From positions 843-64,842 of the forward strand of contig JBKHHD010000003.1 in assembly GCA_046539325.1 (NCBI GenBank): DNA of 64,000 bases, written 5' to 3'. Positions 5,548-63,866 of the stretch are shown piece after piece (the stretch's first letter is position 1; each line of letters begins with the position of its first letter). The notes beneath the pieces are model-generated. The model did not search any database and had not been told where the DNA came from. It worked only from the letters and a program-made list of their open reading frames with translations. The position numbers were made by a program, and so were the translations under genes. Origin of the DNA: Candidatus Aenigmatarchaeota archaeon. GTDB taxonomy: Archaea; Aenigmatarchaeota; Aenigmatarchaeia; PWEA01.

Positions 5548-8031
5548 ATGAAACGTAGTAAAAGCACTGTCGTGGTTGCAGCTACTGTATTCTTGGCCTT
5601 TCTTTTTCTTTCAGGATTTTCTGTTGCTGATACAACAGTTTATACAGAAGATGTAGAAAACGTCACGTATAATTCATCCATCTTTGTTGGTTCTTTGAGC
5701 CATGATGAAGATGAGGTAAACGTTTCCTTTCAATATAGTGATAACCCTGACAACGAAGATGAATGGGAGTATGAAACGGAATCCAAGACTTTGAGCGAGT
5801 CTACGGATAGATTCACTATTGGGGCCGAAGGTCTTTCAGTCAATACAACCTATGCATACAGGGCAATAGCTGAAGGTGAGAGTACTAGTTACGGTGAAAT
5901 TCAAGAGTTCACTACCTACGCAGAACCTACAGTCAAAGCGACGGAAGCCACCGAAATCACCCATGACAGTGCCGTTCTTCAGGGTAATCTAGTCGAAATA
6001 GGCATGGAAGAAGAAGTAGATCTATATTTCGCCTGGCAAGATGAGTTCCAGGACGACGAATGGAACACTACGGATAATTTCACCCTTCAGGAAGAAGGGG
6101 TCTTCACGAAGGAAATAGAAAATCTAGGAAGCGACAGGGAACATAATTTCAAGGCAGTGATGAATTGGGGAGAAGAAAACCATACGGTAGAAAACACAGG
6201 AGAAACCTTCCAAACAAAAACTCCAGTATATGTCGAGGCACGAGAGGTGGAGGAAGTAACAACCAACTCAGCTCTCCTCAAGGCTGAGGTTCTTGGTGAA
6301 GAAGACAAAGTACAAGAGGAAGAGATCAATGCTTCCTTCTTCGTCAAAAACGATGGAATGGAAAAGATAAAGGAAATTGAAGTCGGGGATACCGGAACTA
6401 TAGAAGCAGAGGCCAATAACCTTCAATCAGGTCACAGCTATATCTCTCGTATAGAAATTTCAGACTATGATTCATCCGATGAAATCGATTTTCTCACAGC
6501 TCCGAACGTGAGCATGAAAAATCTGGACGTGGATTCCGAAGAGGTATACGTGGACGAGGAGTTCGAGGCAAGTGTAGATGTGGAGAATCTAGGAGACGTG
6601 GAATACGAATACGAGGTCGTTTTCTCTGTGGATGGTGACGAGGAGAAAACGGTAGATGCAAATGTTTCAGGTGGGAACACCGAAAAAGTCACAGCCGGTC
6701 TTTCGGTTGGTTCCTCAGGTACCTATGACGTGGAAGCAGAAGTACTTGGTAAAACAAATGAAACAGGAATAGAGGTCTTTAACAAGCCGAATGTAGAAAC
6801 AAAAACCCCTGAAGAAGTTGGAGAAGACTACGCAATTCTCGAAGGTGAAGTAACTGAGATGGGTTTAGAGGACGATGTCAAGGTTTTCTTCCGTTTCGGC
6901 GATGAAGACGAAGACGAAGAATACTGGAGCGAGAGCGAGAAACAGGATATTGATGGAGAAGAGGGATTTGAACAGGAAGTTCAACTAAACGAAGAAATCG
7001 GATACGGGTACAAGGCTGTAGTCCAATGGAATGACGGTGACGACGAAAATACTGGTCAAACTCTCACCATGACACCCGATGCATGCGAATATAACAACTG
7101 GGAAAATGAGACATGTGGCGGATGGGAATGTGACGAAGATGAAGTATATCAGGTCAAAGAGGTCACCGATGGTAGCCCCAGCTACTGTGAAGATATCAAA
7201 GAAAGATGTTTTGAATCAGAGAACTATTGTGGTGTGCCAGATGTAAATATTACCCCCGAAAAGGAAATAGTAAATGTTAGTGGAGGTGAACATGAAAAGA
7301 ACAACGTGACGGTTTGGAATATAGGTACCGAGGATCTTAAAGACGTTGAAATGGAAATAGAAGGAAATATACCCGATAACTGGTTCGAAGTCACTGTATC
7401 TAGTTTGGATATAGAGCAAAAGGATGAGAAGGATTTCCAGGTAAACTTCACACCTAATTCTGGAGCACCTGTTGGTAAATATACGATAAATTACTCCGTG
7501 GACTATGGCTCAACAGAAAGGAAGGAAGGCAAGCTGTGGGTACATCCTGATGAAGAAGGGGAGAAAAAGATAAACACTAGGCACAAAAACCTCACGCAGG
7601 ACATTGAAACTATCGAAGGAACAATAAAAGATCTTTCAGAAAAAACCAATGTCAGTCACCTCGAAGAAGATCTCTCAAGACTCAAAGAGCTAACGGCTGA
7701 GGGCGATGAAGCAATAGAAGAAGGTAACTCCATGGCAGCAAAGGAAAAAATAGAGGAGTCGGAATTCCTACTGTCGGAGATAAAGGATAAAATCCAAACA
7801 ACGGAGAAAGAACTGTCCTTTCCCTGGGCATGGATAGGTGTCGGCATAGTTGTAATTATCGTAATCAGTGTTCTCATTTACTTGCTTCTTCCGCCTATTG
7901 AGGAGTACAAAAGATCAGGTTATCAAAGTCCTAGTGATGAGACAGTCCAGGACAAAATAAAGGAAAAATTCAAGGAACTCAAGGAAAGGATTTTCGGCGA
8001 GGAAGAAGAAGGATACACCTATCAGGACTGA
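5548..8031 (+). CDS. Surface protein paralog 3. Signal peptide, Fn3-like repeats, Cys-rich module, CARDB/DUF11-like domain, coiled-coil stalk, TM anchor
   Basis: The ORF track begins at a GTG at 5530. The ATG at 5548 (MKRSKSTVVVAATVFLAFLFLSGFSVA) has GAGG 9 nt upstream and yields a clean signal peptide. Repeats end in YAYRAIAEGES, HNFKAVMNWGEEN and YGYKAVVQWNDGDDE. Cys-rich CEYNNWENETCGGWECDEDE...YCEDIKERCFESENYCG. Coiled-coil carries EEGNSMAAKEKIEESE. TM WAWIGVGIVVIIVISVLIYLLL. Confidence 0.7.
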   Translation: MKRSKSTVVVAATVFLAFLFLSGFSVADTTVYTEDVENVTYNSSIFVGSLSHDEDEVNVSFQYSDNPDNEDEWEYETESKTLSESTDRFTIGAEGLSVNTTYAYRAIAEGESTSYGEIQEFTTYAEPTVKATEATEITHDSAVLQGNLVEIGMEEEVDLYFAWQDEFQDDEWNTTDNFTLQEEGVFTKEIENLGSDREHNFKAVMNWGEENHTVENTGETFQTKTPVYVEAREVEEVTTNSALLKAEVLGEEDKVQEEEINASFFVKNDGMEKIKEIEVGDTGTIEAEANNLQSGHSYISRIEISDYDSSDEIDFLTAPNVSMKNLDVDSEEVYVDEEFEASVDVENLGDVEYEYEVVFSVDGDEEKTVDANVSGGNTEKVTAGLSVGSSGTYDVEAEVLGKTNETGIEVFNKPNVETKTPEEVGEDYAILEGEVTEMGLEDDVKVFFRFGDEDEDEEYWSESEKQDIDGEEGFEQEVQLNEEIGYGYKAVVQWNDGDDENTGQTLTMTPDACEYNNWENETCGGWECDEDEVYQVKEVTDGSPSYCEDIKERCFESENYCGVPDVNITPEKEIVNVSGGEHEKNNVTVWNIGTEDLKDVEMEIEGNIPDNWFEVTVSSLDIEQKDEKDFQVNFTPNSGAPVGKYTINYSVDYGSTERKEGKLWVHPDEEGEKKINTRHKNLTQDIETIEGTIKDLSEKTNVSHLEEDLSRLKELTAEGDEAIEEGNSMAAKEKIEESEFLLSEIKDKIQTTEKELSFPWAWIGVGIVVIIVISVLIYLLLPPIEEYKRSGYQSPSDETVQDKIKEKFKELKERIFGEEEEGYTYQD

Positions 8032-8376
8032 CTATTTTATATCACACGAAAATCTGCTTTCTAGAATAGAAGCCCTCTTCGCTGCCTGGCATATTTCACA
8101 GAATCTCTCGTCGTATTGCTCCATATCTATTCTTTGTTTCGCGACGTCCTCTACGAGACCATCAACTTTCCTCGAAACATCCTCCGATTTCTCTATCTTC
8201 TTTACCTGTCTTCCTCTCAGTTCGTTCTGGTACTGTGAGACAGCGGGCTGTGTCATATCCAAACGTCTTGCAGTCTCCCTCTGAGTAAGACCGTGTTCTT
8301 CGACTAGATCCCTCGCAAGAATAGCTCTGACAGCAGGAAGGAGATCGTTGACAAAAACCTCACATACGAGTTTCAT
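8032..8376 (-). CDS. Small HTH transcription regulator with a C-terminal Cys cluster
   Basis: HTH-like GLTQRETARRLDMTQPAVSQY, with C-terminal CEICQ...C. Its stop directly abuts the stop of the convergent surface-protein gene. Confidence 0.5.
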   Translation of the reverse strand: MKLVCEVFVNDLLPAVRAILARDLVEEHGLTQRETARRLDMTQPAVSQYQNELRGRQVKKIEKSEDVSRKVDGLVEDVAKQRIDMEQYDERFCEICQAAKRASILESRFSCDIK

Positions 8377-8384
8377 TCGATCAC

Positions 8385-9626
8385 CTAAACCTCTCCTCTG
8401 AGTTTCATGGCTTTCAAAACTTTCTTGACTGCAAGGCTATATGCTGCGTCCCTCATACTTATACTCTTTTCCTTGTGAACATCGTAAACCTCCGAAAAGG
8501 CCTGGGTCATCTTCTTATCCAGCTTCTCTCTGAACTCCTCAAGGGTCCAGCTGTAGCCGTAACGGTTCTGGACCCACTCAAAGTAAGAACCGGTTACACC
8601 CCCAGCATTGCATAAAAAGTCCGGTATCTGAAACACATCCTTTTCAGCAAGGATTTCGTCAGCCCTTGGGGTAACTGGACCGTTTGCAGCCTCGGCAACT
8701 ATGTCAGCCTTTACATCGTCTGCGTTCTCTTCCGTTATCACGTTCTCTATAGCCGCAGGAGAGAGAACGTCCACGTCCAGGGCGAAAAGTTCTTCATTTG
8801 TTATGTCATCATAGGGCGCCTTTGCAACAGTTCCATGCTCTTCCATACTTTCCTTAAGCTTATCGTAATCAAGACCAGAACTGTCATAAACACCTCCACC
8901 GGCATCCGTTACAGCCACCACGTCCATACCAAGTTCCTGAGCAGAATTAACCAGGTGTTCACCAACGTTTCCGAAGCCCTGGACAGCCAGGCTCATACCC
9001 TCCAAATCCCTGTTCAGTTTATTGGCGGCCTCCCTTATCATGAAGGCCACACCTCTTCCCGTGGACTCGCTTCTTCCCTTGGAACCACCTATTTCCACAG
9101 GTTTCGAAGTTATAACTCCAGGCCTGTGTTTTCCGACAAGCTTTTCGTACTCGTCCATCATCCAGCCCATTATCTGAGAGTTGGTTCCGACATCAGGTGC
9201 AGGCACATCCTGTTCCGGTCCTATGTACTTGTAGATGCAGCGAATGTATTCCCTTGACAGTTTTTCCAGTTCACGGTCGCTCATGCTTCGTCCATCGCAG
9301 ACTATACCTCCCTTAGAACCGCCGTAGGGTAGATCAGCAACAGCCGTCTTCCAGGTCATCCATGCAGAAAGCGCCTTGACATCCGAAAGCTCCTCCTCGG
9401 GATGGAACCTTATGCCACCCTTCCCAGGACCTCTCGCATCGTTGTAAAGAACGCGCCAGCCTGTGAAGTTCTCGATAGAACCGTCGTCCATCCTTACAGG
9501 AATATTTACCTCTACTATCCTCTTCGGCTTCTTGAGGACCTCGAGCTCTTCATCACTCATATCTATATGTTTAGCGGCGTTTTCCAGCTGTTTTTTCGCG
9601 TTCTCAAAGGCATTTTCCTCTGACAT
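8385..9626 (-). CDS. gdhA: Glutamate dehydrogenase
   Basis: [11 protein letters not shown]...LPYGGSKGG catalytic Lys motif. NAD(P) Rossmann GFGNVG. 413 aa is typical length. Confidence 0.93.
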
Positions 9627-26902: not shown

Positions 26903-26994
26903 GGGCCGGTAGTGTAGCCTGGACTATCATTCCAGCCCGGGGAAGTCACTCCGGAACGCTGGCAACCCGTGTTCAAATCACGGCCGGCCCACCA
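26903..26994 (+). tRNA. tRNA-Pro (anticodon GGG) with a ~14-nt intron at 37/38. CCA encoded
   Basis: Acceptor GGGCCGG/CCGGCCC. T-arm CCGTG-TTCAAAT-CACGG. Anticodon stem CCAGC/GCTGG. Loop CCGGGG[intron AAGTCACTCCGGAA]C. Body nearly identical to tRNA-Pro(TGG) at 41709. Confidence 0.6.
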
Positions 26995-31544: not shown

Positions 31545-31674
31545 GCCGGCGTGGCCTAGTGGTTAAGGCGCTGCGCTCATAAACAATAATTTATGAGCTT
31601 TGATCCGCTGACGCGGAGATGAAAAATTTTGCGGTGCAACGCAGAGAGCGAGGGTTCGACCCCCTCCGCCGGCA
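31545..31674 (+). tRNA. tRNA with CAT anticodon (elongator Met or Ile2) with a 57-nt intron at 37/38. No encoded CCA
   Basis: Acceptor GCCGGCG/CGCCGGC. D-arm GCCT-AGTGGTTA-AGGC. Anticodon stem CTGCG/CGCAG. Loop CTCATA[intron]A, where intron TTATGAG pairs with loop CTCATAA. T-arm GAGGG-TTCGACC-CCCTC. TATA TTTTATAG 29 nt upstream. Confidence 0.65.
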
Positions 31675-59576: not shown

Positions 59577-59661
59577 GCGGGGGTACCCAAGTGGCCGAAG
59601 GGGCAGCGTTGAGGGCGCTGTGCACGTAGGTGCTTCGTCGGTTCGAATCCGGCCCCCCGCA
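59577..59661 (+). tRNA. tRNA-Leu (anticodon GAG). No encoded CCA
   Basis: Acceptor GCGGGGG/CCCCCGC. 3-bp D-stem CCC/GGG. Anticodon arm CAGCG-TTGAGGG-CGCTG. Long variable arm GCAC-GTAG-GTGC. T-arm GTCGG-TTCGAAT-CCGGC. Confidence 0.85.
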
Positions 59662-59705: not shown

Positions 59706-59849
59706 TGGTCCCCCGACCGTGATTTGAACACGGGGCCTGTCGGTATCGGCAGAGGCGCTAATCCAAGGCACCAAATCAAAATACCGAAGAGTTATCATCT
59801 CCGGTGCCCGTCTACAGCCGACCGCTCTGCCAGCCTGAGCTATCGGGGG
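59706..59849 (-). tRNA. tRNA-Tyr (anticodon GTA) with a ~67-nt intron at 37/38. CCA encoded
   Basis: Minus-strand read. Acceptor CCCCCGA/TCGGGGG, so a C1:G72 pair. D-arm GCTC-AGGCTGGCA-GAGC. Anticodon stem GTCGG/CCGAC. Loop CTGTAG[intron]A. T-arm CCGTG-TTCAAAT-CACGG. Confidence 0.75.
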
Positions 59850-59929
59850 ACTGGACTTAGTTTTGTGGAATACCTTTATTTAACTTTTGGTGCCGGAAGG
59901 CTTTTATTCCTCTGTGGGAAAATAAAGGC

Positions 59930-60364
59930 ATGGAGAAAAGGTTTGAGATCATAGAGGATGAGGCAACTGCAGATATAGCCTACAGAGCTTATGGAGAGAC
60001 TCTGGAAGAGATGTACGAGAGCGCGGCCCTCGGTCTCTTCGACATAATAACCGACATCGAGGACGTAAATACACTACAAACAGACCTGATAACAGTTTCA
60101 GCCGAGGACCGAGAAGCTCTGTTGCTGGACTTCCTAAATGAGCTCCTGTACAGATGGGACGTGGACAAGGTCCTGTTTTCGAAATTCTCCTGTGATCTTC
60201 AAACAAAGGACGGGAGTTTGGAACTCTCCGCGAACTGCGAAGGGGAGAAGTTCGACGCCGAAAGACATGAAAACAGAGTCGAGGTCAAGGCAGTCACCTA
60301 CTTCGGGATGGAGATCCAAGAAGAAGAGGGAGTTTGGACCGGAAAGATAACCATCGACGTCTGA
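59930..60364 (+). CDS. Archease (RtcB activator)
   Basis: FEIIEDEATADIAYRAYGETLEE...VKAVTYFGMEIQEEEGVWTGKITIDV. Confidence 0.85.
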   Translation: MEKRFEIIEDEATADIAYRAYGETLEEMYESAALGLFDIITDIEDVNTLQTDLITVSAEDREALLLDFLNELLYRWDVDKVLFSKFSCDLQTKDGSLELSANCEGEKFDAERHENRVEVKAVTYFGMEIQEEEGVWTGKITIDV

Positions 60365-60417
60365 CTGTCGGAAGAATTTAAATATCCCCATTCAACTAAT
60401 AGTACGGGGTGGCTTAA

Positions 60418-60900
60418 TTGAAGACCTACATGACTATCTACTTTAACTCGGACGGAAAGAGACCTTCTGATGTAGTCAAAAAGCTCGAGGACCTTGGTTT
60501 CGAGCTCAACAGAGGAGACTACGATTTCATATATGACTGGGATGAAGAGACCTCTCTGGACCACATAATGAGCCTCGGTGACAACATAAAGGAACTTCTG
60601 AAAGGAGACAAGGTTCTCTTCGAAATAAAGACAAGTGAAGGCGAAGAGGAGGAAGAAGAGGGGGAGATGAGGACCTATATGAAGCTTGTCTTCAGCGCCG
60701 AAGAAGGAAAATCTCCTACCGATACAGACGACATCATTGCTGACCTTGTCGATATAGGCTTCGAGCCCATAAAGGGAAGTTACGATTACGTTTACAGATG
60801 GCCAGAATCCGTAGACGTCGACGCAATACTTGAAGTAGCTGACAGGGTTTACGATTCTCTCAGGGGCTGCGGCGTGTACTTCAAGCTGAAGACCGTGTAG
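60418..60900 (+). CDS. Uncharacterised acidic protein made of two tandem ~75-aa repeats. TTG start
   Basis: Repeat 1 MKTYMTIYFNSDGKRPSDVVKKLEDLGFELNRGDYDFIYDWDEE. Repeat 2 MRTYMKLVFSAEEGKSPTDTDDIIADLVDIGFEPIKGSYDYVYRWPES. GGGGTGG RBS upstream of the TTG. Lies between archease and rtcB. Confidence 0.55.
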   Translation: MKTYMTIYFNSDGKRPSDVVKKLEDLGFELNRGDYDFIYDWDEETSLDHIMSLGDNIKELLKGDKVLFEIKTSEGEEEEEEGEMRTYMKLVFSAEEGKSPTDTDDIIADLVDIGFEPIKGSYDYVYRWPESVDVDAILEVADRVYDSLRGCGVYFKLKTV

Positions 60901-60916
60901 TTCTGAAGGTGAAAGT

Positions 60917-62350
60917 ATGGTAGATCTAAATAAGATAAACAAAAACACATGGGAAATTCCCAAGGAAGATGGAATGAACGTCCCTGGAAGAGTATACGCT
61001 TCCGAGGAACTTCTTCAGCAGATAAAGGAGGATAAAACTCTCGAGCAGATAAAGAACGTTGCCCATCTTCCTGGTATTTACAATTACTCTATAGCAATGC
61101 CTGACGCCCATCAGGGCTACGGATTCCCTATAGGAGGTGTAGCGGCCTTGGACGTGGGAGAAGGCGGAATAAGTCCTGGGGGTGTCGGCTACGATATCAA
61201 CTGCGGCATTCGCCTGGTAAAAACTCCGCTGAAGGTTGATGATGTAAGAAATAGGCTCAAGGAACTCATAAACGTACTTTTCCAAAGAGTTCCTTCGGGC
61301 GTCGGAAAGAGTTCTACAATTTCTCTTGACAAGAACGACCTCGAAGACGTTATAGAAAACGGTGCAAAATGGGCCGTTGAAAACGGATACGGCATTAAAG
61401 AAGACCTGAAAAATCTGGAAGAGAACGGGAGGATGAAAGAAGCTGATGCCTCCGAGGTCTCGGATAAGGCTATGAACCGTGGAAAGGAACAGGTAGGATG
61501 TCTTGGCGCAGGAAACCATTTTCTTGAGGTGGAGAAGGTAGGAAATATAGATAATGAAAAAGTTGCGAAGGAGTTTGGCATGGAAGAAGATCAGGTGTGT
61601 GTCATGATCCACACCGGTTCAAGAGGTTTCGGCCACCAGGTCTGCACAGATTATCTTCGCGAAACCGAAAAGAAGTACAAGAACGTAGTTCGTAATCTCC
61701 CCGACAAAGAGCTTGTATACGCTCCAGGGGGTTCAAGGATGGCGGAGAGGTACTTCAAGGCGATGAGCTGTGCCGTGAACTTCGCCTTCGCAAACAGACA
61801 GGTAATAATGCATCAGGTAAGGAAAGCCTTCCAGGAAGTCTTCGAACTGGATTACGAGGATCTGGAGCTTGTGTACGGCGTCTGCCACAACGTCGCCAAA
61901 AAGGAAGAGCATGAAGTAAACGGAGAAAGTAAAGAAGTATACGTACATAGAAAGGGCGCGACCCGTGCCTTCCCACCAGGTCACAAAAAGGTGCCGGAAA
62001 ACTACAGGAACGTAGGACAACCCGTTCTCATCCCCGGGAATATGGGTGAAGGAAGCTATCTGCTCCGAGGAACTGAAAAATCTATGGACCTGTCCTTTGG
62101 AACTGCACCACACGGCTCAGGAAGGATCATGTCCCGAACAAAGGCAAAGGGAGAGTTCTGGGGCGAAACCGTGGCCAAAGATCTGAAGAAGAAAAAGGAC
62201 ATACTAGTCAAGGCGGCATCAATGCCTGTCGTCGCCGAGGAAGCTCCAGGAGCATACAAGAACCTCAAGGAGGTCGTAGAAGCTTCACATGATTTAGGCG
62301 TGGCAGAGAAGGTTTTGAAACTGGATCCTATGGGTGTCATAAAGGGCTGA
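60917..62350 (+). CDS. rtcB: RNA-splicing ligase RtcB
   Basis: GGVGYDINCGIRLV, GAGNHFLEV, HTGSRGFGHQV, NVGQPVLIPGNMG, APHGSGR. Confidence 0.93.
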   Translation: MVDLNKINKNTWEIPKEDGMNVPGRVYASEELLQQIKEDKTLEQIKNVAHLPGIYNYSIAMPDAHQGYGFPIGGVAALDVGEGGISPGGVGYDINCGIRLVKTPLKVDDVRNRLKELINVLFQRVPSGVGKSSTISLDKNDLEDVIENGAKWAVENGYGIKEDLKNLEENGRMKEADASEVSDKAMNRGKEQVGCLGAGNHFLEVEKVGNIDNEKVAKEFGMEEDQVCVMIHTGSRGFGHQVCTDYLRETEKKYKNVVRNLPDKELVYAPGGSRMAERYFKAMSCAVNFAFANRQVIMHQVRKAFQEVFELDYEDLELVYGVCHNVAKKEEHEVNGESKEVYVHRKGATRAFPPGHKKVPENYRNVGQPVLIPGNMGEGSYLLRGTEKSMDLSFGTAPHGSGRIMSRTKAKGEFWGETVAKDLKKKKDILVKAASMPVVAEEAPGAYKNLKEVVEASHDLGVAEKVLKLDPMGVIKG

Positions 62351-62406: not shown

Positions 62407-63081
62407 ATGAGCATAGAAAGAATCGAGACAGGTATTTCTGGCCTCGATGAACTTCTGAAGGGTGGGATACCAGAGAAAAATATCGTTCTAGTCAGTGGTG
62501 AATCAGGAGCCGGTAAAACTACTTTCTGTTCACAGTTTTTATGGAAAGGTCTTCAAGAAGGAGAAAACTGTATGTTCATATCCTTTGAAGAACCACCCTC
62601 ACAGATAAAGGAGGAGGCAAAGCTATTTGGCTGGGATTTCGAAAGTTATAGTAATCAAATTACTCTCAAAAGCAAGGACCCATTTGACGAAGGAAGTGAA
62701 GACCTCTTCTGGTTCAGAGACGAGCTGCAGAGAAAGGAAATTGACAGGCTCGCAATAGACTCCACATCCATACTTTCTCTATACCACGAAGACCCCTACG
62801 AGGTAAGAAAAGCCATATACGAAATAATCAAGGTTATAAAGGAAACAGGTACTACAGCTGTCCTGACTGCCGAATCACCGACCGGTGAAAAAAGTCTTAC
62901 AAGGCACGATGTAGTTCAATACGCTGTAGACGGCGTTATAGCCCTTTATTTCGAAGGAATAGGTGAGAAAGGTTATAGATCCCTTCAGGTCAGAAAGATG
63001 AGAAAGAGCGATATTTCAACCGAGACAGTCTCTTTTGAAATAACAGACCAAGGCATCGAACTCGGACAGTCAATAGTCTGA
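62407..63081 (+). CDS. KaiC-like single-domain RecA-superfamily ATPase
   Basis: Walker A GESGAGKTTF. KaiC-like FISFEEPPSQI. Confidence 0.8.
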   Translation: MSIERIETGISGLDELLKGGIPEKNIVLVSGESGAGKTTFCSQFLWKGLQEGENCMFISFEEPPSQIKEEAKLFGWDFESYSNQITLKSKDPFDEGSEDLFWFRDELQRKEIDRLAIDSTSILSLYHEDPYEVRKAIYEIIKVIKETGTTAVLTAESPTGEKSLTRHDVVQYAVDGVIALYFEGIGEKGYRSLQVRKMRKSDISTETVSFEITDQGIELGQSIV

Positions 63082-63089
63082 AGTTAAAC

Positions 63090-63866
63090 CTACCTATCCT
63101 CTGTGATTAATAGCCCTTCATTTGTTATTTCTATAGGAAATATCTCTATAGCGTGATCGGTTCTGCGCATCTTCCTTATTTCAAGTGTTCTGTTGTACCT
63201 GTCAGAAATAGGTGTAAACTCCAGCTTTATCACGCTATCTACGAGGTACTCGACTATTCCCCCACCGGTCAACCCCTCGGAAGTTTCCGGTATAGTACCG
63301 ACCAGAAGTGCAGTAACTTCCATTTCTTTGAGCTTCTTTATGAGCGATGATATAACAACCCTGGCCATATACTCGTCCTTTACGAACATCTCTATGAGAG
63401 AGACGGAATCTATAACAACTCTCTGAGCATCTACCTCCTTTATATTTTTCTCGAGATTTTCCATGAAGTCGGAGATATAGCCCCGAACAAGTCTGTTGAG
63501 GTTGTCTATATCGACTGTCGGAAAAACAGGTTTTACGGAATCTATGCGCAAAAGGCCTTGATCTCCTGAGTAATCCATGAGATTCCAATCGAACATCTCC
63601 TTTACGTCTTCAACTACATCTTCTTCGTTCTCCTCGGTAGTAATATAAACTCCAGCCTCGCCGTTCTGGATGCCAGCATATATAAAGGAAGCTGAGAAGG
63701 CCGTCTTACCTGTTCCTGTCTTTCCTGTAACAAGGTTTACTGATCCCTCAAAAAAACCTCCTCCAACCTTTTCGTCAAGATTTTCAACGCCAGTATCTAG
63801 TCTCTTCATCTTACCTTGATAATTAAGTTCCCTTACTTTTATCTCTTTCCTTAGAACAAGGCTCAA
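63090..63866 (-). CDS. KaiC-like single-domain RecA-superfamily ATPase (paralog)
   Basis: Walker A GKTGTGKTAF. YITTEENEED. Convergent with 62407..63081. Confidence 0.8.
   Translation of the reverse strand: MSLVLRKEIKVRELNYQGKMKRLDTGVENLDEKVGGGFFEGSVNLVTGKTGTGKTAFSASFIYAGIQNGEAGVYITTEENEEDVVEDVKEMFDWNLMDYSGDQGLLRIDSVKPVFPTVDIDNLNRLVRGYISDFMENLEKNIKEVDAQRVVIDSVSLIEMFVKDEYMARVVISSLIKKLKEMEVTALLVGTIPETSEGLTGGGIVEYLVDSVIKLEFTPISDRYNRTLEIRKMRRTDHAIEIFPIEITNEGLLITEDR

What the first reader, a model, noticed from the sequence alone, without database searches (positions are those of the whole stretch)
59930..62350. Archease / tandem-repeat unknown protein / RtcB: a candidate third component of the tRNA ligation module
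Archease and RtcB are functional partners and often adjacent. Here a 160-aa acidic protein built from two ~75-aa repeats (M[KR]TYM..[IL][YV]F....G[KR].P.D...[IL]..L.D[LI]GFE....G.YD[FY][IV]Y.W...) is inserted between them, with 50-60-nt gaps on each side and its own GGTGG RBS. Gene-neighbourhood logic makes it a candidate RNA-repair or splicing accessory factor. I do not recognise the repeat.
Basis: inference. Interest (0 to 1): 0.55.

Follow-up and report, generated by a model that had tools for sequence, protein, structure and literature searches.

The report
Unknown tandem-repeat gene inside archease–rtcB operon
A real, conserved 160-residue protein of an unnamed archaeal small-protein family sits between the tRNA-ligase gene rtcB and its activator archease, but only in one narrow group of Aenigmatarchaeota, so it is at most a local add-on to the tRNA-splicing machinery.

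Summary
Archease (59930-60364), a 160-aa acidic ORF "X" (60418-60900, TTG start) and RtcB (60917-62350) lie in a row. X is two ~75-aa repeats (38% identical, E 6e-20). One detail is wrong: the X-rtcB gap is 16 nt, not 50-60.

Each repeat belongs to a large unnamed archaeal family of ~74-aa single-domain proteins (154 cluster representatives). Of 91 loci encoding those relatives, none carries rtcB or archease nearby.

The archease-X-rtcB trio is found only in one Aenigmatarchaeota sub-clade (8 loci). Sister-clade loci (L097, L098) and outgroups have archease directly next to rtcB, so X looks like a derived insertion.

An intron-containing tRNA-Tyr gene lies divergently upstream of archease in all nine Aenigmatarchaeota loci that include the archease upstream region.

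Verdict: X is a new lineage-specific variant of the known archease-rtcB operon. A role in ligation is possible (about 0.3) but unproven, and X is not a general third component.

The parts
59577..59661 (+). tRNA-Leu(GAG), no intron. Flank of the locus; also present upstream in L004.
   Evidence: ARAGORN; Rfam tRNA 48.3 bits.
59706..59849 (-). tRNA-Tyr(GTA) gene with a 67-nt intron at the canonical position and an encoded CCA. It is transcribed divergently from archease and is a substrate of the splicing pathway.
   Evidence: Read by hand. Found by aragorn with introns allowed. Missed by default ARAGORN and Rfam. Conserved at this position in all 9 Aenigmatarchaeota loci, with introns of 66-109 nt.
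59850..59929 (.). Shared divergent promoter region of about 80 nt. It holds a conserved CCTTTATTTAaCTTTtGG box (TATA-like for the tRNA on the minus strand) and a CTTTTATT box about 30 nt before the archease ATG.
   Evidence: Conserved in all loci aligned by eye. Promoter function is inferred, not shown.
59930..60364 (+). Archease, the RtcB activator; 144 aa, pI 4.10.
   Evidence: PF01951 E 5e-41; NCBIfam PRK00407 E 1.5e-38. A 100% match is named archease [Candidatus Aenigmatarchaeota archaeon].
60377..60384 (+). TATA-like box TTTAAATA (context AAGAATTTAAATAT), about 35 nt before the X start. It is a candidate internal promoter for X(-rtcB).
   Evidence: The motif is conserved in the archease-X spacer of the window, L001, L003, L004, L005, L099 and L100. 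It also lies in the archease-rtcB spacer of X-less L097. Inference from sequence only.
60418..60900 (+). X: a 160-aa acidic tandem-repeat protein with a TTG start and a GGGGTGG RBS at 60406-60412. Predicted as two ferredoxin-like βαββαβ domains.
   Evidence: ORF. Nine homologues at 59-100% identity, 53 invariant columns. pN 0.12-0.23 against pS 0.70-0.88. AF2 pLDDT 86.7, pTM 0.83.
60418..60642 (+). Repeat 1 of X (residues 1-75). It is the half most like the single-domain ~74-aa family.
   Evidence: Most single-domain proteins match profile positions 1-72, with E down to 1.8e-19.
60643..60666 (+). Acidic linker (GEEEEEEG), variable in sequence among orthologues but always acidic. It ends in an invariant Glu-Met that looks like a fossil start codon of the second unit.
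   Evidence: Alignment A1: E83 and M84 are invariant. Adjacent unfused paralogue pairs occur in L006/L007, L041 and L089.
60667..60897 (+). Repeat 2 of X (residues 84-160), the more divergent half, with an invariant Cys151.
60917..62350 (+). RtcB 3'-phosphate RNA ligase, 477 aa, no intein. Its RBS (GGTGA) lies in the 16-nt spacer after X.
   Evidence: PF01139 E 8.8e-170. Orthologues are 76-85% identical.
62407..63866 (.). Convergent pair of single-domain KaiC-like ATPases (62407-63081 +, 63090-63866 -). They form the downstream flank and are not part of the module.
   Evidence: PF06745 E 1.7e-61 and 4.3e-58. Present downstream in L001, L002, L003, L099 and X-less L097, but absent in L005 and L100.

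Best explanation
X is a genuine protein-coding gene. It is a fused tandem, an intramolecular pseudo-dimer, of an unnamed archaea-wide family of ~74-aa ferredoxin-like (βαββαβ) small proteins.

It entered a pre-existing tRNA-splicing locus (intron-containing tRNA-Tyr divergent from archease-rtcB) once, in the ancestor of one Aenigmatarchaeota sub-clade. It landed just downstream of the TATA-like box that precedes rtcB in X-less relatives.

It has stayed there because it is useful in itself and because it lies between two genes that selection keeps together.

I think the family works as a small dimeric binding module of the ACT/RAM kind. It would bind a small ligand or a partner protein through the conserved Gly-containing β1-α1 loop and the G-x-Y-D-x-x-Y-x-W hairpin. 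It is not a dedicated subunit of the RNA ligase. In this clade its expression is coupled to rtcB, but ligation does not depend on it.

Shown: gene reality, repeat, fold class, family membership, clade-restricted insertion, and lack of RtcB linkage elsewhere.

Inferred: dimer or pseudo-dimer behaviour, ligand or partner binding, promoter use, and independence from ligation.
For: - Purifying selection comparable to archease, with pN 0.12-0.23 against saturated pS.
- Repeat halves align at E 6e-20.
- The profile search of 1.84 billion representatives gave 154 hits. Nearly all are 70-80-aa single-domain proteins, and only one full-length tandem cluster appears. A further 349 members are all named 'hypothetical protein', from Thermoplasmata and Euryarchaeota MAGs.
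- AF2 model with two βαββαβ domains, pTM 0.83.
- Structural matches are only to ferredoxin-like folds: Cas2, ACT, YkoF/MTH1187, RAM.
- The trio is present in 8 loci of one clade. It is absent from sister-clade L097 and L098 and from outgroups L095 and L096, where archease abuts rtcB.
- No rtcB or archease lies in the flanks of 91 loci encoding relatives. Those contexts are heterogeneous and the gene is often alone between opposite-strand genes.
- In 5 of the 7 loci where the X-rtcB spacer could be read, it is 51-78 nt, and several of these carry a TATA-like box of their own. X and rtcB therefore need not share a transcript.
- Unfused adjacent paralogue pairs (L006, L041, L089) and the invariant Met at the repeat-2 start support an origin by gene fusion.
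- Links to regulatory modules are tight pairing with a stand-alone Lrp/AsnC RAM-domain protein (17-18-nt gap, 5 loci) and rare fusions to weak wHTH or Zn-ribbon modules.
Against: - Position inside a functionally coupled gene pair, kept across saturated synonymous divergence and reshuffled flanks, is what a functional partner would also show.
- In the window and L099 the X-rtcB spacer is only 16-22 nt, which points to one transcript.
- Relatives in other lineages lie just upstream of other RNA-maturation genes: KsgA/Dim1, Trm1 and a 23S rRNA gene. That hints at an RNA-biogenesis theme.
- No ligand, partner or oligomeric state was tested.
- The ACT/RAM analogy rests on fold class and loop conservation only.
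Confidence: 0.5

Rival explanations
1. Lineage-specific accessory of the tRNA ligation step. X binds RtcB and/or archease in this Aenigmatarchaeota sub-clade and tunes ligase activation, stability or substrate choice. It would be made from the same transcript as rtcB, next to one of the pathway's substrates (intron-containing tRNA-Tyr).
For: - The trio is invariant in all 8 loci of the clade despite saturated pS and changed flanks.
- The spacer to rtcB is 16-22 nt in the window and L099.
- X sits behind the TATA-like box that precedes rtcB in X-less L097.
- X is as acidic as archease, pI 4.27 against 4.10.
- The locus is dedicated to splicing, with the tRNA-Tyr intron gene conserved upstream.
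- Three of the five tRNA genes in the window carry introns.
- Other RtcB systems have lineage-specific helpers, namely metazoan DDX1, CGI-99, FAM98B, ASHWIN and PYROXD1. This comes from abstracts of the papers listed.
Against: - X is absent from the same locus in the sister clade and outgroups, so ligation there works without it.
- No member of the wider family is linked to rtcB or archease in 91 loci.
- A gene that lands between two co-selected genes is retained there passively.
- Longer spacers with TATA-like boxes in L001, L003 and L100 suggest separate transcription.
- No interaction evidence of any kind.
Confidence: 0.3
2. Cas2/VapD/GhoS-like small endoribonuclease. X would cut RNA to give ends that RtcB reseals, forming a cleavage-ligation pair.
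Against: - There is no sequence similarity to Cas2 or VapD.
- From my own knowledge, not tested here, Cas2 carries a catalytic Asp at the end of β1. The matching position in this family is not a conserved acidic residue.
- Across the single-domain alignment, Asp of the GxYD motif is the only invariant residue; Thr, Phe, Gly, Trp and Leu are nearly invariant (>=90%), and this set looks structural.
- Strongly acidic proteins (pI 4.2-4.7 in all tandem members) are poor RNA binders.
Confidence: 0.07
3. Metal (Mn2+) buffer or chaperone for RtcB. The acidic surface and poly-Glu linker would deliver or sequester the Mn(II) that RtcB needs, in parallel to the acidic metal-binding tip of archease.
For: pI is 4.27. 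The linker is always acidic although its sequence varies. RtcB is Mn(II)-dependent, and archease acts through conserved carboxylates.
Against: No conserved carboxylate cluster was identified. The linker is not conserved in sequence. Single-domain relatives are less acidic, with median pI 5.5 and 15 of 58 above 7, and they are not linked to RtcB.
Confidence: 0.05
4. Not a functional gene, but a chance ORF or decaying insertion between archease and rtcB.
For: Non-ATG start (TTG). An antisense ORF of 221 aa overlaps it. No annotation exists anywhere.
Against: pN is far below pS in the + frame. There are 53 invariant residues across 10 sequences, both repeats are conserved, an RBS is present, and the AF2 model is confident.
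Confidence: 0.01

Closest known systems
Archease-rtcB 'tRNA splicing operon' (Desai et al. 2014, PMC3973293)
   Same: Archease lies directly upstream of rtcB on the same strand, and both are clear family members. X-less relatives (L097, L098, L096, L095) show the classical two-gene form.
   Different: Here a third, unknown gene is inserted between the two. A TATA-like box after archease suggests that archease and X(-rtcB) are separate transcription units. An intron-containing tRNA-Tyr gene is a conserved divergent neighbour. The paper mentions only a tRNA m5C methyltransferase as an occasional extra operon member.
Stand-alone and tandem ACT / RAM (Lrp-AsnC ligand-binding) domain proteins, such as the GcvR-like tandem ACT protein 1u8s, the SerB2 ACT1-ACT2 pair and the stand-alone RAM protein 2e1a
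   Same: βαββαβ ferredoxin-like units of about 75 residues that work as dimers or tandem pseudo-dimers. A conserved Gly lies in the β1-α1 loop. These are the top Foldseek hits over both domains. One sub-lineage pairs the X relative with a stand-alone RAM protein 17-18 nt downstream.
   Different: No sequence match to the ACT or AsnC_trans_reg models. TM-scores are only 0.31-0.36 with rmsd 13-14 Å over both domains, so the domain packing differs. No ligand is known.
Cas2 / VapD / GhoS ferredoxin-fold endoribonucleases
   Different: Only 17% identity and no profile match. I found no conserved acidic residue where, from my own knowledge, Cas2 has its catalytic Asp. No CRISPR or toxin-antitoxin context. 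X is strongly acidic.
YkoF / MTH1187 (DUF77) tandem ferredoxin-like ligand-binding proteins
Non-catalytic partners of metazoan RTCB (DDX1, CGI-99, FAM98B, ASHWIN, PYROXD1)
   Same: They set a precedent for lineage-specific proteins added to the RtcB-archease core (abstracts of the papers listed).
   Different: No homology or fold similarity to X. Those partners were found by co-purification, whereas X is linked by gene position only.

Membership tests
Archease (PF01951), gene 59930-60364 | Significant match to the family model over its full length | tested here: met
   E 5e-41, model positions 2-136 of 136. NCBIfam equivalog PRK00407 scores 132.1 bits against a cutoff of 126.
RtcB (PF01139), gene 60917-62350 | Significant match to the family model over its full length | tested here: met
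   E 8.8e-170, model positions 1-426 of 426.
Archease-rtcB operon (Desai 2014) | Archease and rtcB directly adjacent, on the same strand, in one transcription unit | tested here: inconclusive
   The strand and order are right, but X (483 nt) separates the two genes and a conserved TATA-like box follows archease. No transcript data are available.
tRNA ligation module, as a 'third component' | Co-occurrence and linkage with rtcB/archease beyond one narrow clade | tested here: not met
   Absent in sister-clade L097 and L098 and in outgroups L095 and L096. None of 91 loci encoding relatives has rtcB or archease in its flanks.
tRNA ligation module, as a 'third component' | Physical or functional interaction with RtcB or archease | not testable with these tools
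   This needs co-purification, ligation assays or multimer modelling with interface scores.
ACT / RAM ligand-binding domains | βαββαβ fold | tested here: met
   AF2 secondary-structure order is β1-α1-β2-β3-α2-β4, twice. ACT and RAM proteins are among the hits.
ACT / RAM ligand-binding domains | Sequence-profile membership (PF01842, PF13291, PF01037 and related models) | tested here: not met
   No such Pfam hit at E <= 1 for X, for 10 relatives or for the 58 members of A2.
ACT / RAM ligand-binding domains | Binding of a small-molecule effector at a dimer interface | not testable with these tools
Cas2 / VapD endoribonucleases | Sequence-profile membership and a conserved catalytic acidic residue after β1 (the residue is recalled from my own knowledge) | tested here: not met
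   No Pfam or PDB sequence hit. The single invariant and five nearly invariant columns of A2 (D37; T4, F29, G34, W42, L62) do not include an acidic residue at the end of β1.
Cas2 / VapD endoribonucleases | CRISPR-cas or toxin-antitoxin gene context | tested here: not met
   No cas or antitoxin genes lie near X or its relatives.
Unnamed ~74-aa archaeal family (defined here by alignments A2 and A3) | Motif KTYL-x3-F-x-S-x-G-x2-P-S...L-G-F...G-x-Y-D-x-x-Y-x-W...L-K-G-x2-V-x-F-x-L-E-T, in a βαββαβ unit | tested here: met
   Both repeats of X match. Single-domain members hit the X profile at E down to 1.8e-19. All 94 loci then held were found by tblastn with either repeat.

The most novel reading that the evidence does not exclude
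The unnamed ~74-aa ferredoxin-like family would be a new class of small dimeric cofactors or regulators of RNA-maturation enzymes. Different archaeal lineages would have wired it independently to RtcB-archease (here, as a fused pseudo-dimer), KsgA/Dim1, Trm1 and a 23S rRNA gene. In this Aenigmatarchaeota clade X would be a true third subunit or sensor that gates tRNA ligation. The divergent intron-containing tRNA-Tyr gene would make the locus a self-contained substrate-plus-enzyme splicing module.
Probability: 0.15. Interest if true: 0.7.

Novelty: new variant of a known kind. Interest (0 to 1): 0.4.

Why it matters
RtcB and archease form the universal archaeal/metazoan tRNA exon-ligation core. 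Metazoa have added several poorly understood subunits, while no extra archaeal partner is known. If X really is a clade-specific partner, it would be the first such partner and a simple system for studying how the ligase is regulated.

Independently of that, the work defines a sizeable archaeal small-protein family with no Pfam, NCBIfam or PDB sequence match: 154 clusters at 50% identity and more than 560 metagenome loci.

It also shows a conserved head-to-head pairing of an intron-containing tRNA-Tyr gene with the genes that finish its splicing.

The practical value is modest. The evidence says X is dispensable for ligation in close relatives, so it should not be annotated as a ligation component from position alone.

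Tried and rejected
- **Known families:** Pfam and NCBIfam scans of X, of 10 relatives and of all 58 members of A2 gave only scattered sub-threshold noise.
- **PDB by sequence:** profiles A1 and A2 gave nothing meaningful.
- **Fold searches:** Foldseek against PDB and BFVD gave no hit at E <= 1e-3. The afdb50 library was unavailable.
- **Metagenome scan:** It was redone with the closer subset A3.
- **wHTH neighbour:** I suspected that the Thermoplasmata neighbour (120-136 aa) is a winged-helix protein, which would give a Rosetta-stone link with the fusions P0151 and P0157. Pfam did not confirm it, so it stays a lead.
- **C/D-box reading of the tRNA-Tyr intron:** the intron has ATGATGA-like boxes, but I found no clear D box. 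The conserved 3' part looks, by eye, as if it pairs with the anticodon stem at the splice site, so I did not pursue this.
- **RNA-biogenesis theme:** it appears in about 4 of roughly 25-30 context types (RtcB, KsgA, Trm1, 23S rRNA). The count is post hoc and the other contexts are metabolic or unknown. I treat it as suggestive only.
- **Repeat orthology:** the test of whether repeats 1 and 2 match the a and b paralogues of unfused pairs was weak. Repeat 1 leans to 'a' (88 against 76 bits) and repeat 2 is undecided.
- **Literature:** searches found nothing on this protein or on RtcB in Aenigmatarchaeota.
- **Complex modelling:** I did not attempt a fused-chain AF2 model of a complex. The tool returns no interface scores and the paired alignment would be only about 7 sequences deep.
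Full report
**1. What is in the sequence**

The region holds three same-strand genes.
- Archease, 59930-60364, PF01951 E 5e-41.
- A 160-aa ORF "X", 60418-60900, with a TTG start.
- RtcB, 60917-62350, PF01139 E 8.8e-170.

X is two repeats. Residues 1-75 and 84-160 align at 38% identity, E 6e-20, joined by an acidic linker. X is acidic: pI 4.27, against 4.10 for archease and 6.24 for RtcB.

A GGGGTGG Shine-Dalgarno motif lies 5 nt before the TTG. The archease-X spacer is 53 nt, but the X-rtcB spacer is only 16 nt.

Orthologues begin MKTY with ATG or TTG. This supports the long start over the public 156-aa gene call (P0001).

**2. X is a real gene**

- Nine homologues of 156-168 aa share 59-100% identity, with 53 invariant columns spread over both repeats.
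- Against six orthologues, nonsynonymous differences are 0.12-0.23 per site, while synonymous sites are saturated at 0.70-0.88.
- That constraint is similar to archease (pN 0.21-0.26).
- AlphaFold2 with this shallow alignment gives a confident model, pLDDT 86.7 and pTM 0.83.
- The overlapping 221-aa antisense ORF is therefore spurious.

**3. What X is**

X matches nothing described. The best Pfam hit is E 0.0039 and below the family cutoff. There is no NCBIfam hit and no PDB sequence hit with the family profile.

The model is two βαββαβ (ferredoxin-like) units.
- Foldseek against PDB gives nothing at E <= 1e-3. The weak top hits are tandem ACT proteins, YkoF and designed ferredoxin folds, with TM 0.31-0.36.
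- The fold class is thus clear, and no specific family can be assigned.

A profile search of 1.84 billion cluster representatives gave 154 hits.
- Only one is a full-length tandem like X.
- Almost all the others are 70-80-aa single-domain proteins that match one repeat, usually repeat 1, at E down to 1.8e-19.
- A second search with their alignment found 349 more. All are named "hypothetical protein" and have no Pfam domain. Where a source names the organism, they come from Thermoplasmata and Euryarchaeota MAGs.
- The shared motif is KTYL...F-x-S-x-G-x-x-P-S...L-G-F...G-x-Y-D-x-x-Y-x-W...L-K-G...F-K-L-E-T.

X is therefore a fused tandem of an unnamed archaeal small-protein family. Three observations make fusion of two neighbouring genes the likely origin, though the evidence is modest:
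- unfused adjacent paralogue pairs exist (L006/L007, L041, L089);
- Glu-Met is invariant at the start of repeat 2;
- the two L006 genes overlap by one base.

**4. How far the trio is conserved**

The window is from a Candidatus Aenigmatarchaeota MAG.

Archease-X-rtcB is present in the window, L001, L003, L005, L099 and L100. L004 carries archease-X at a contig end, and L002 carries X-rtcB at a contig start.

The flanks differ among these loci.
- Upstream: endonuclease III and tRNA-Leu in the window, a HAD hydrolase in L099, and a predicted oxidoreductase with only faint or weak Pfam hits (FAD/NAD-binding and GGR_cat families) in L100.
- Downstream: a KaiC pair in most loci, other genes in L005 and L100.

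Two close relatives lack X.
- L097 and L098 have RtcB 76-83% and archease 59-60% identical to the window's. L097 also has the same KaiC pair downstream.
- In both, archease and rtcB are 50-51 nt apart, and tblastn finds no trace of X (best E 0.025).
- By identity, L097 and L098 group together, just outside the X-bearing loci.

The more distant L095 and L096 (RtcB about 50% identical) also have archease next to rtcB without X. The simplest reading is one insertion of X into an older archease-rtcB pair in the ancestor of a narrow sub-clade.

All tandem X genes found in the 5.8-billion-protein collection lie on contigs that also carry an archease. I inferred this by matching contig lengths, and verified it directly for eight loci.

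**5. Anatomy of the locus**

With introns allowed, ARAGORN finds a tRNA-Tyr(GTA) gene with a 67-nt intron at 59706-59849 on the minus strand. It lies head-to-head with archease.
- Default ARAGORN and Rfam missed it.
- The same gene, with introns of 66-109 nt, holds this position in all nine Aenigmatarchaeota loci that include the archease upstream region, among them the X-less L097 and L098. It is absent from L095 and L096.
- The 80-nt divergent spacer carries two conserved AT-rich boxes.

After archease there is a conserved AAGAATTTAA(A/G)TAT box about 35 nt before the X start. X-less L097 has the same TTTAAATA box before rtcB. I read this as an internal archaeal promoter, which is an inference without transcript data. 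On that reading X was inserted between the rtcB promoter and rtcB.

The X-rtcB spacer is 16 nt in the window and 22 nt in L099, which suggests co-transcription. It is 51-78 nt elsewhere, and several of those spacers have their own AATTATAAA-like box. Operon structure may therefore vary within the clade.

**6. What the wider family says**

I inspected 91 loci encoding relatives:
- 9 from exact-protein look-ups of single-domain members;
- 2 copies of one contig carrying an independent, divergent tandem (P0028).

None has rtcB or archease within up to 6 kb. Contexts are heterogeneous, and the gene often stands alone between opposite-strand genes. Recurrent same-strand downstream neighbours in single lineages are:
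- KsgA/Dim1 rRNA dimethylase, 64-89 nt away, 6 loci;
- a stand-alone Lrp/AsnC RAM-domain protein, 17-18 nt away, 5 loci;
- a metallo-β-lactamase-fold protein;
- Trm1 after a paralogue pair in L006;
- a lone 23S rRNA gene about 245 nt downstream, checked in three loci of a class of 18.

Other neighbours, judged from their sequences only and not scanned against Pfam, look like fumarase subunits, a peptidase, a nitroreductase, thioredoxin reductase and aldehyde:ferredoxin oxidoreductase. The P0028 tandem sits next to a transposase-like ORF.

Four RNA-maturation contexts among roughly 25-30 context types is suggestive. The count is post hoc and I do not rely on it.

**7. Mechanism**

Best-supported reading (0.5): X is a pseudo-dimeric member of a general small binding-module family, working like ACT/RAM-type domains. 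Conserved elements that could form a binding site are the Gly-containing β1-α1 loop and the aromatic G-x-Y-D-x-x-Y-x-W hairpin. Its place in the rtcB locus would be a clade-specific insertion kept by linkage and by its own utility. It would be co-expressed with rtcB but not required for ligation.

Main rival (0.3): in this clade X has been recruited as a true accessory of RtcB/archease. Position, the short spacer, the shared promoter box and the dedicated splicing locus all fit. Absence from sister and outgroup loci, and from rtcB neighbourhoods elsewhere, argues against anything more than a local role.

Minor rivals:
- A Cas2-like RNase paired with a ligase (0.07). It rests only on a generic fold match, without a conserved acidic residue at the end of β1, and X is very acidic.
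- A Mn2+ buffer (0.05).
- A non-gene (0.01, refuted).

**8. Comparison with what is known**

The archease-rtcB operon is well described. A tRNA m5C methyltransferase is the only extra member mentioned (PMC3973293). I found no paper on X, on this family, or on RtcB in Aenigmatarchaeota.

[quoted passage not shown] It is not related to any of them. It shares the fold class of ACT, RAM, Cas2 and YkoF but fails the sequence-membership test for each.

**9. Verdict**

- Novelty: a new variant of a known kind. It is the archease-rtcB locus with a clade-specific inserted gene from an undescribed family, plus a conserved divergent intron-containing tRNA-Tyr gene.
- Interest: 0.4. The candidate is testable and the new family definition is useful, but X is restricted to a narrow clade and has no evidence of interaction.

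Noticed in passing
window 59706-59849 (-); L001, L003, L004, L005, L099, L100, L097, L098 upstream of archease: tRNA-Tyr(GTA) gene with a long intron (67 nt here, 66-109 nt in relatives), head-to-head with archease in all nine Aenigmatarchaeota loci, X-bearing or not. A substrate of the splicing pathway is thus conserved next to the ligase genes. Default ARAGORN and Rfam miss it. It is not present in outgroups L095 and L096.
   Followed up: partly
window 31545-31674 (+) and 26903-26994 (+): Two further intron-containing tRNA genes appear when introns are allowed: tRNA-Met(CAT) with a 57-nt intron and tRNA-Pro(GGG) with a 14-nt intron. Three of the five tRNA genes in the window are split.
   Followed up: no
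L001 5552-8404, L097 5483-8335, L098 2123-4975 versus window 60917-62350: RtcB intein polymorphism. An intein of about 470 aa interrupts RtcB after residue ~95 in L001 (X-bearing), L097 and L098 (X-less). It is absent in the window, L002, L003, L005, L099 and L100.
   Followed up: partly
L019 6001-6219 / 6469-9540; L035 6001-6219 / 6462-9527; L022 5463-5681 / 5931-8999: In one lineage (18 metagenome loci share the context) the single-domain relative of X lies about 245 nt upstream of a lone 23S rRNA gene on the same strand. I confirmed this with Rfam in three loci.
   Followed up: partly
L055, L065, L066, L071, L075, L084; L070, L072, L077, L083, L092; L006 5001-6570: Other lineage-specific same-strand downstream partners of the single-domain relatives. 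These are KsgA/Dim1 rRNA dimethylase (gap mostly 64-89 nt), a 79-aa stand-alone Lrp/AsnC RAM-domain protein (gap 17-18 nt), and Trm1 after an unfused paralogue pair.
   Followed up: partly
proteins P0084, P0088, P0151, P0157 (no loci): Rare fusions of the X-type domain. Two carry C-terminal zinc ribbons and two carry C-terminal regions with weak winged-helix (TrmB/TFIIE-like) matches. All matches are below the Pfam cutoffs.
   Followed up: partly
window 62407-63081 (+) and 63090-63866 (-): Convergent pair of single-domain KaiC-like ATPases immediately downstream of rtcB. The pair is conserved in L001, L002, L003, L099 and X-less L097, but not in L005 or L100.
   Followed up: no
window 60418-60429: The public gene call for X (P0001, 156 aa) starts at the internal ATG (MTIYF...). 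The repeat structure and the orthologues show the true start is the TTG four codons upstream (MKTYM...).
   Followed up: yes
window 60643-60669: The GA-rich codons of the acidic linker (GAAGAGGAGGAAGAAGAGGGGGAG) form a Shine-Dalgarno-like stretch just before the invariant Met84 codon. Separate internal initiation of repeat 2 is conceivable but untested.
   Followed up: no
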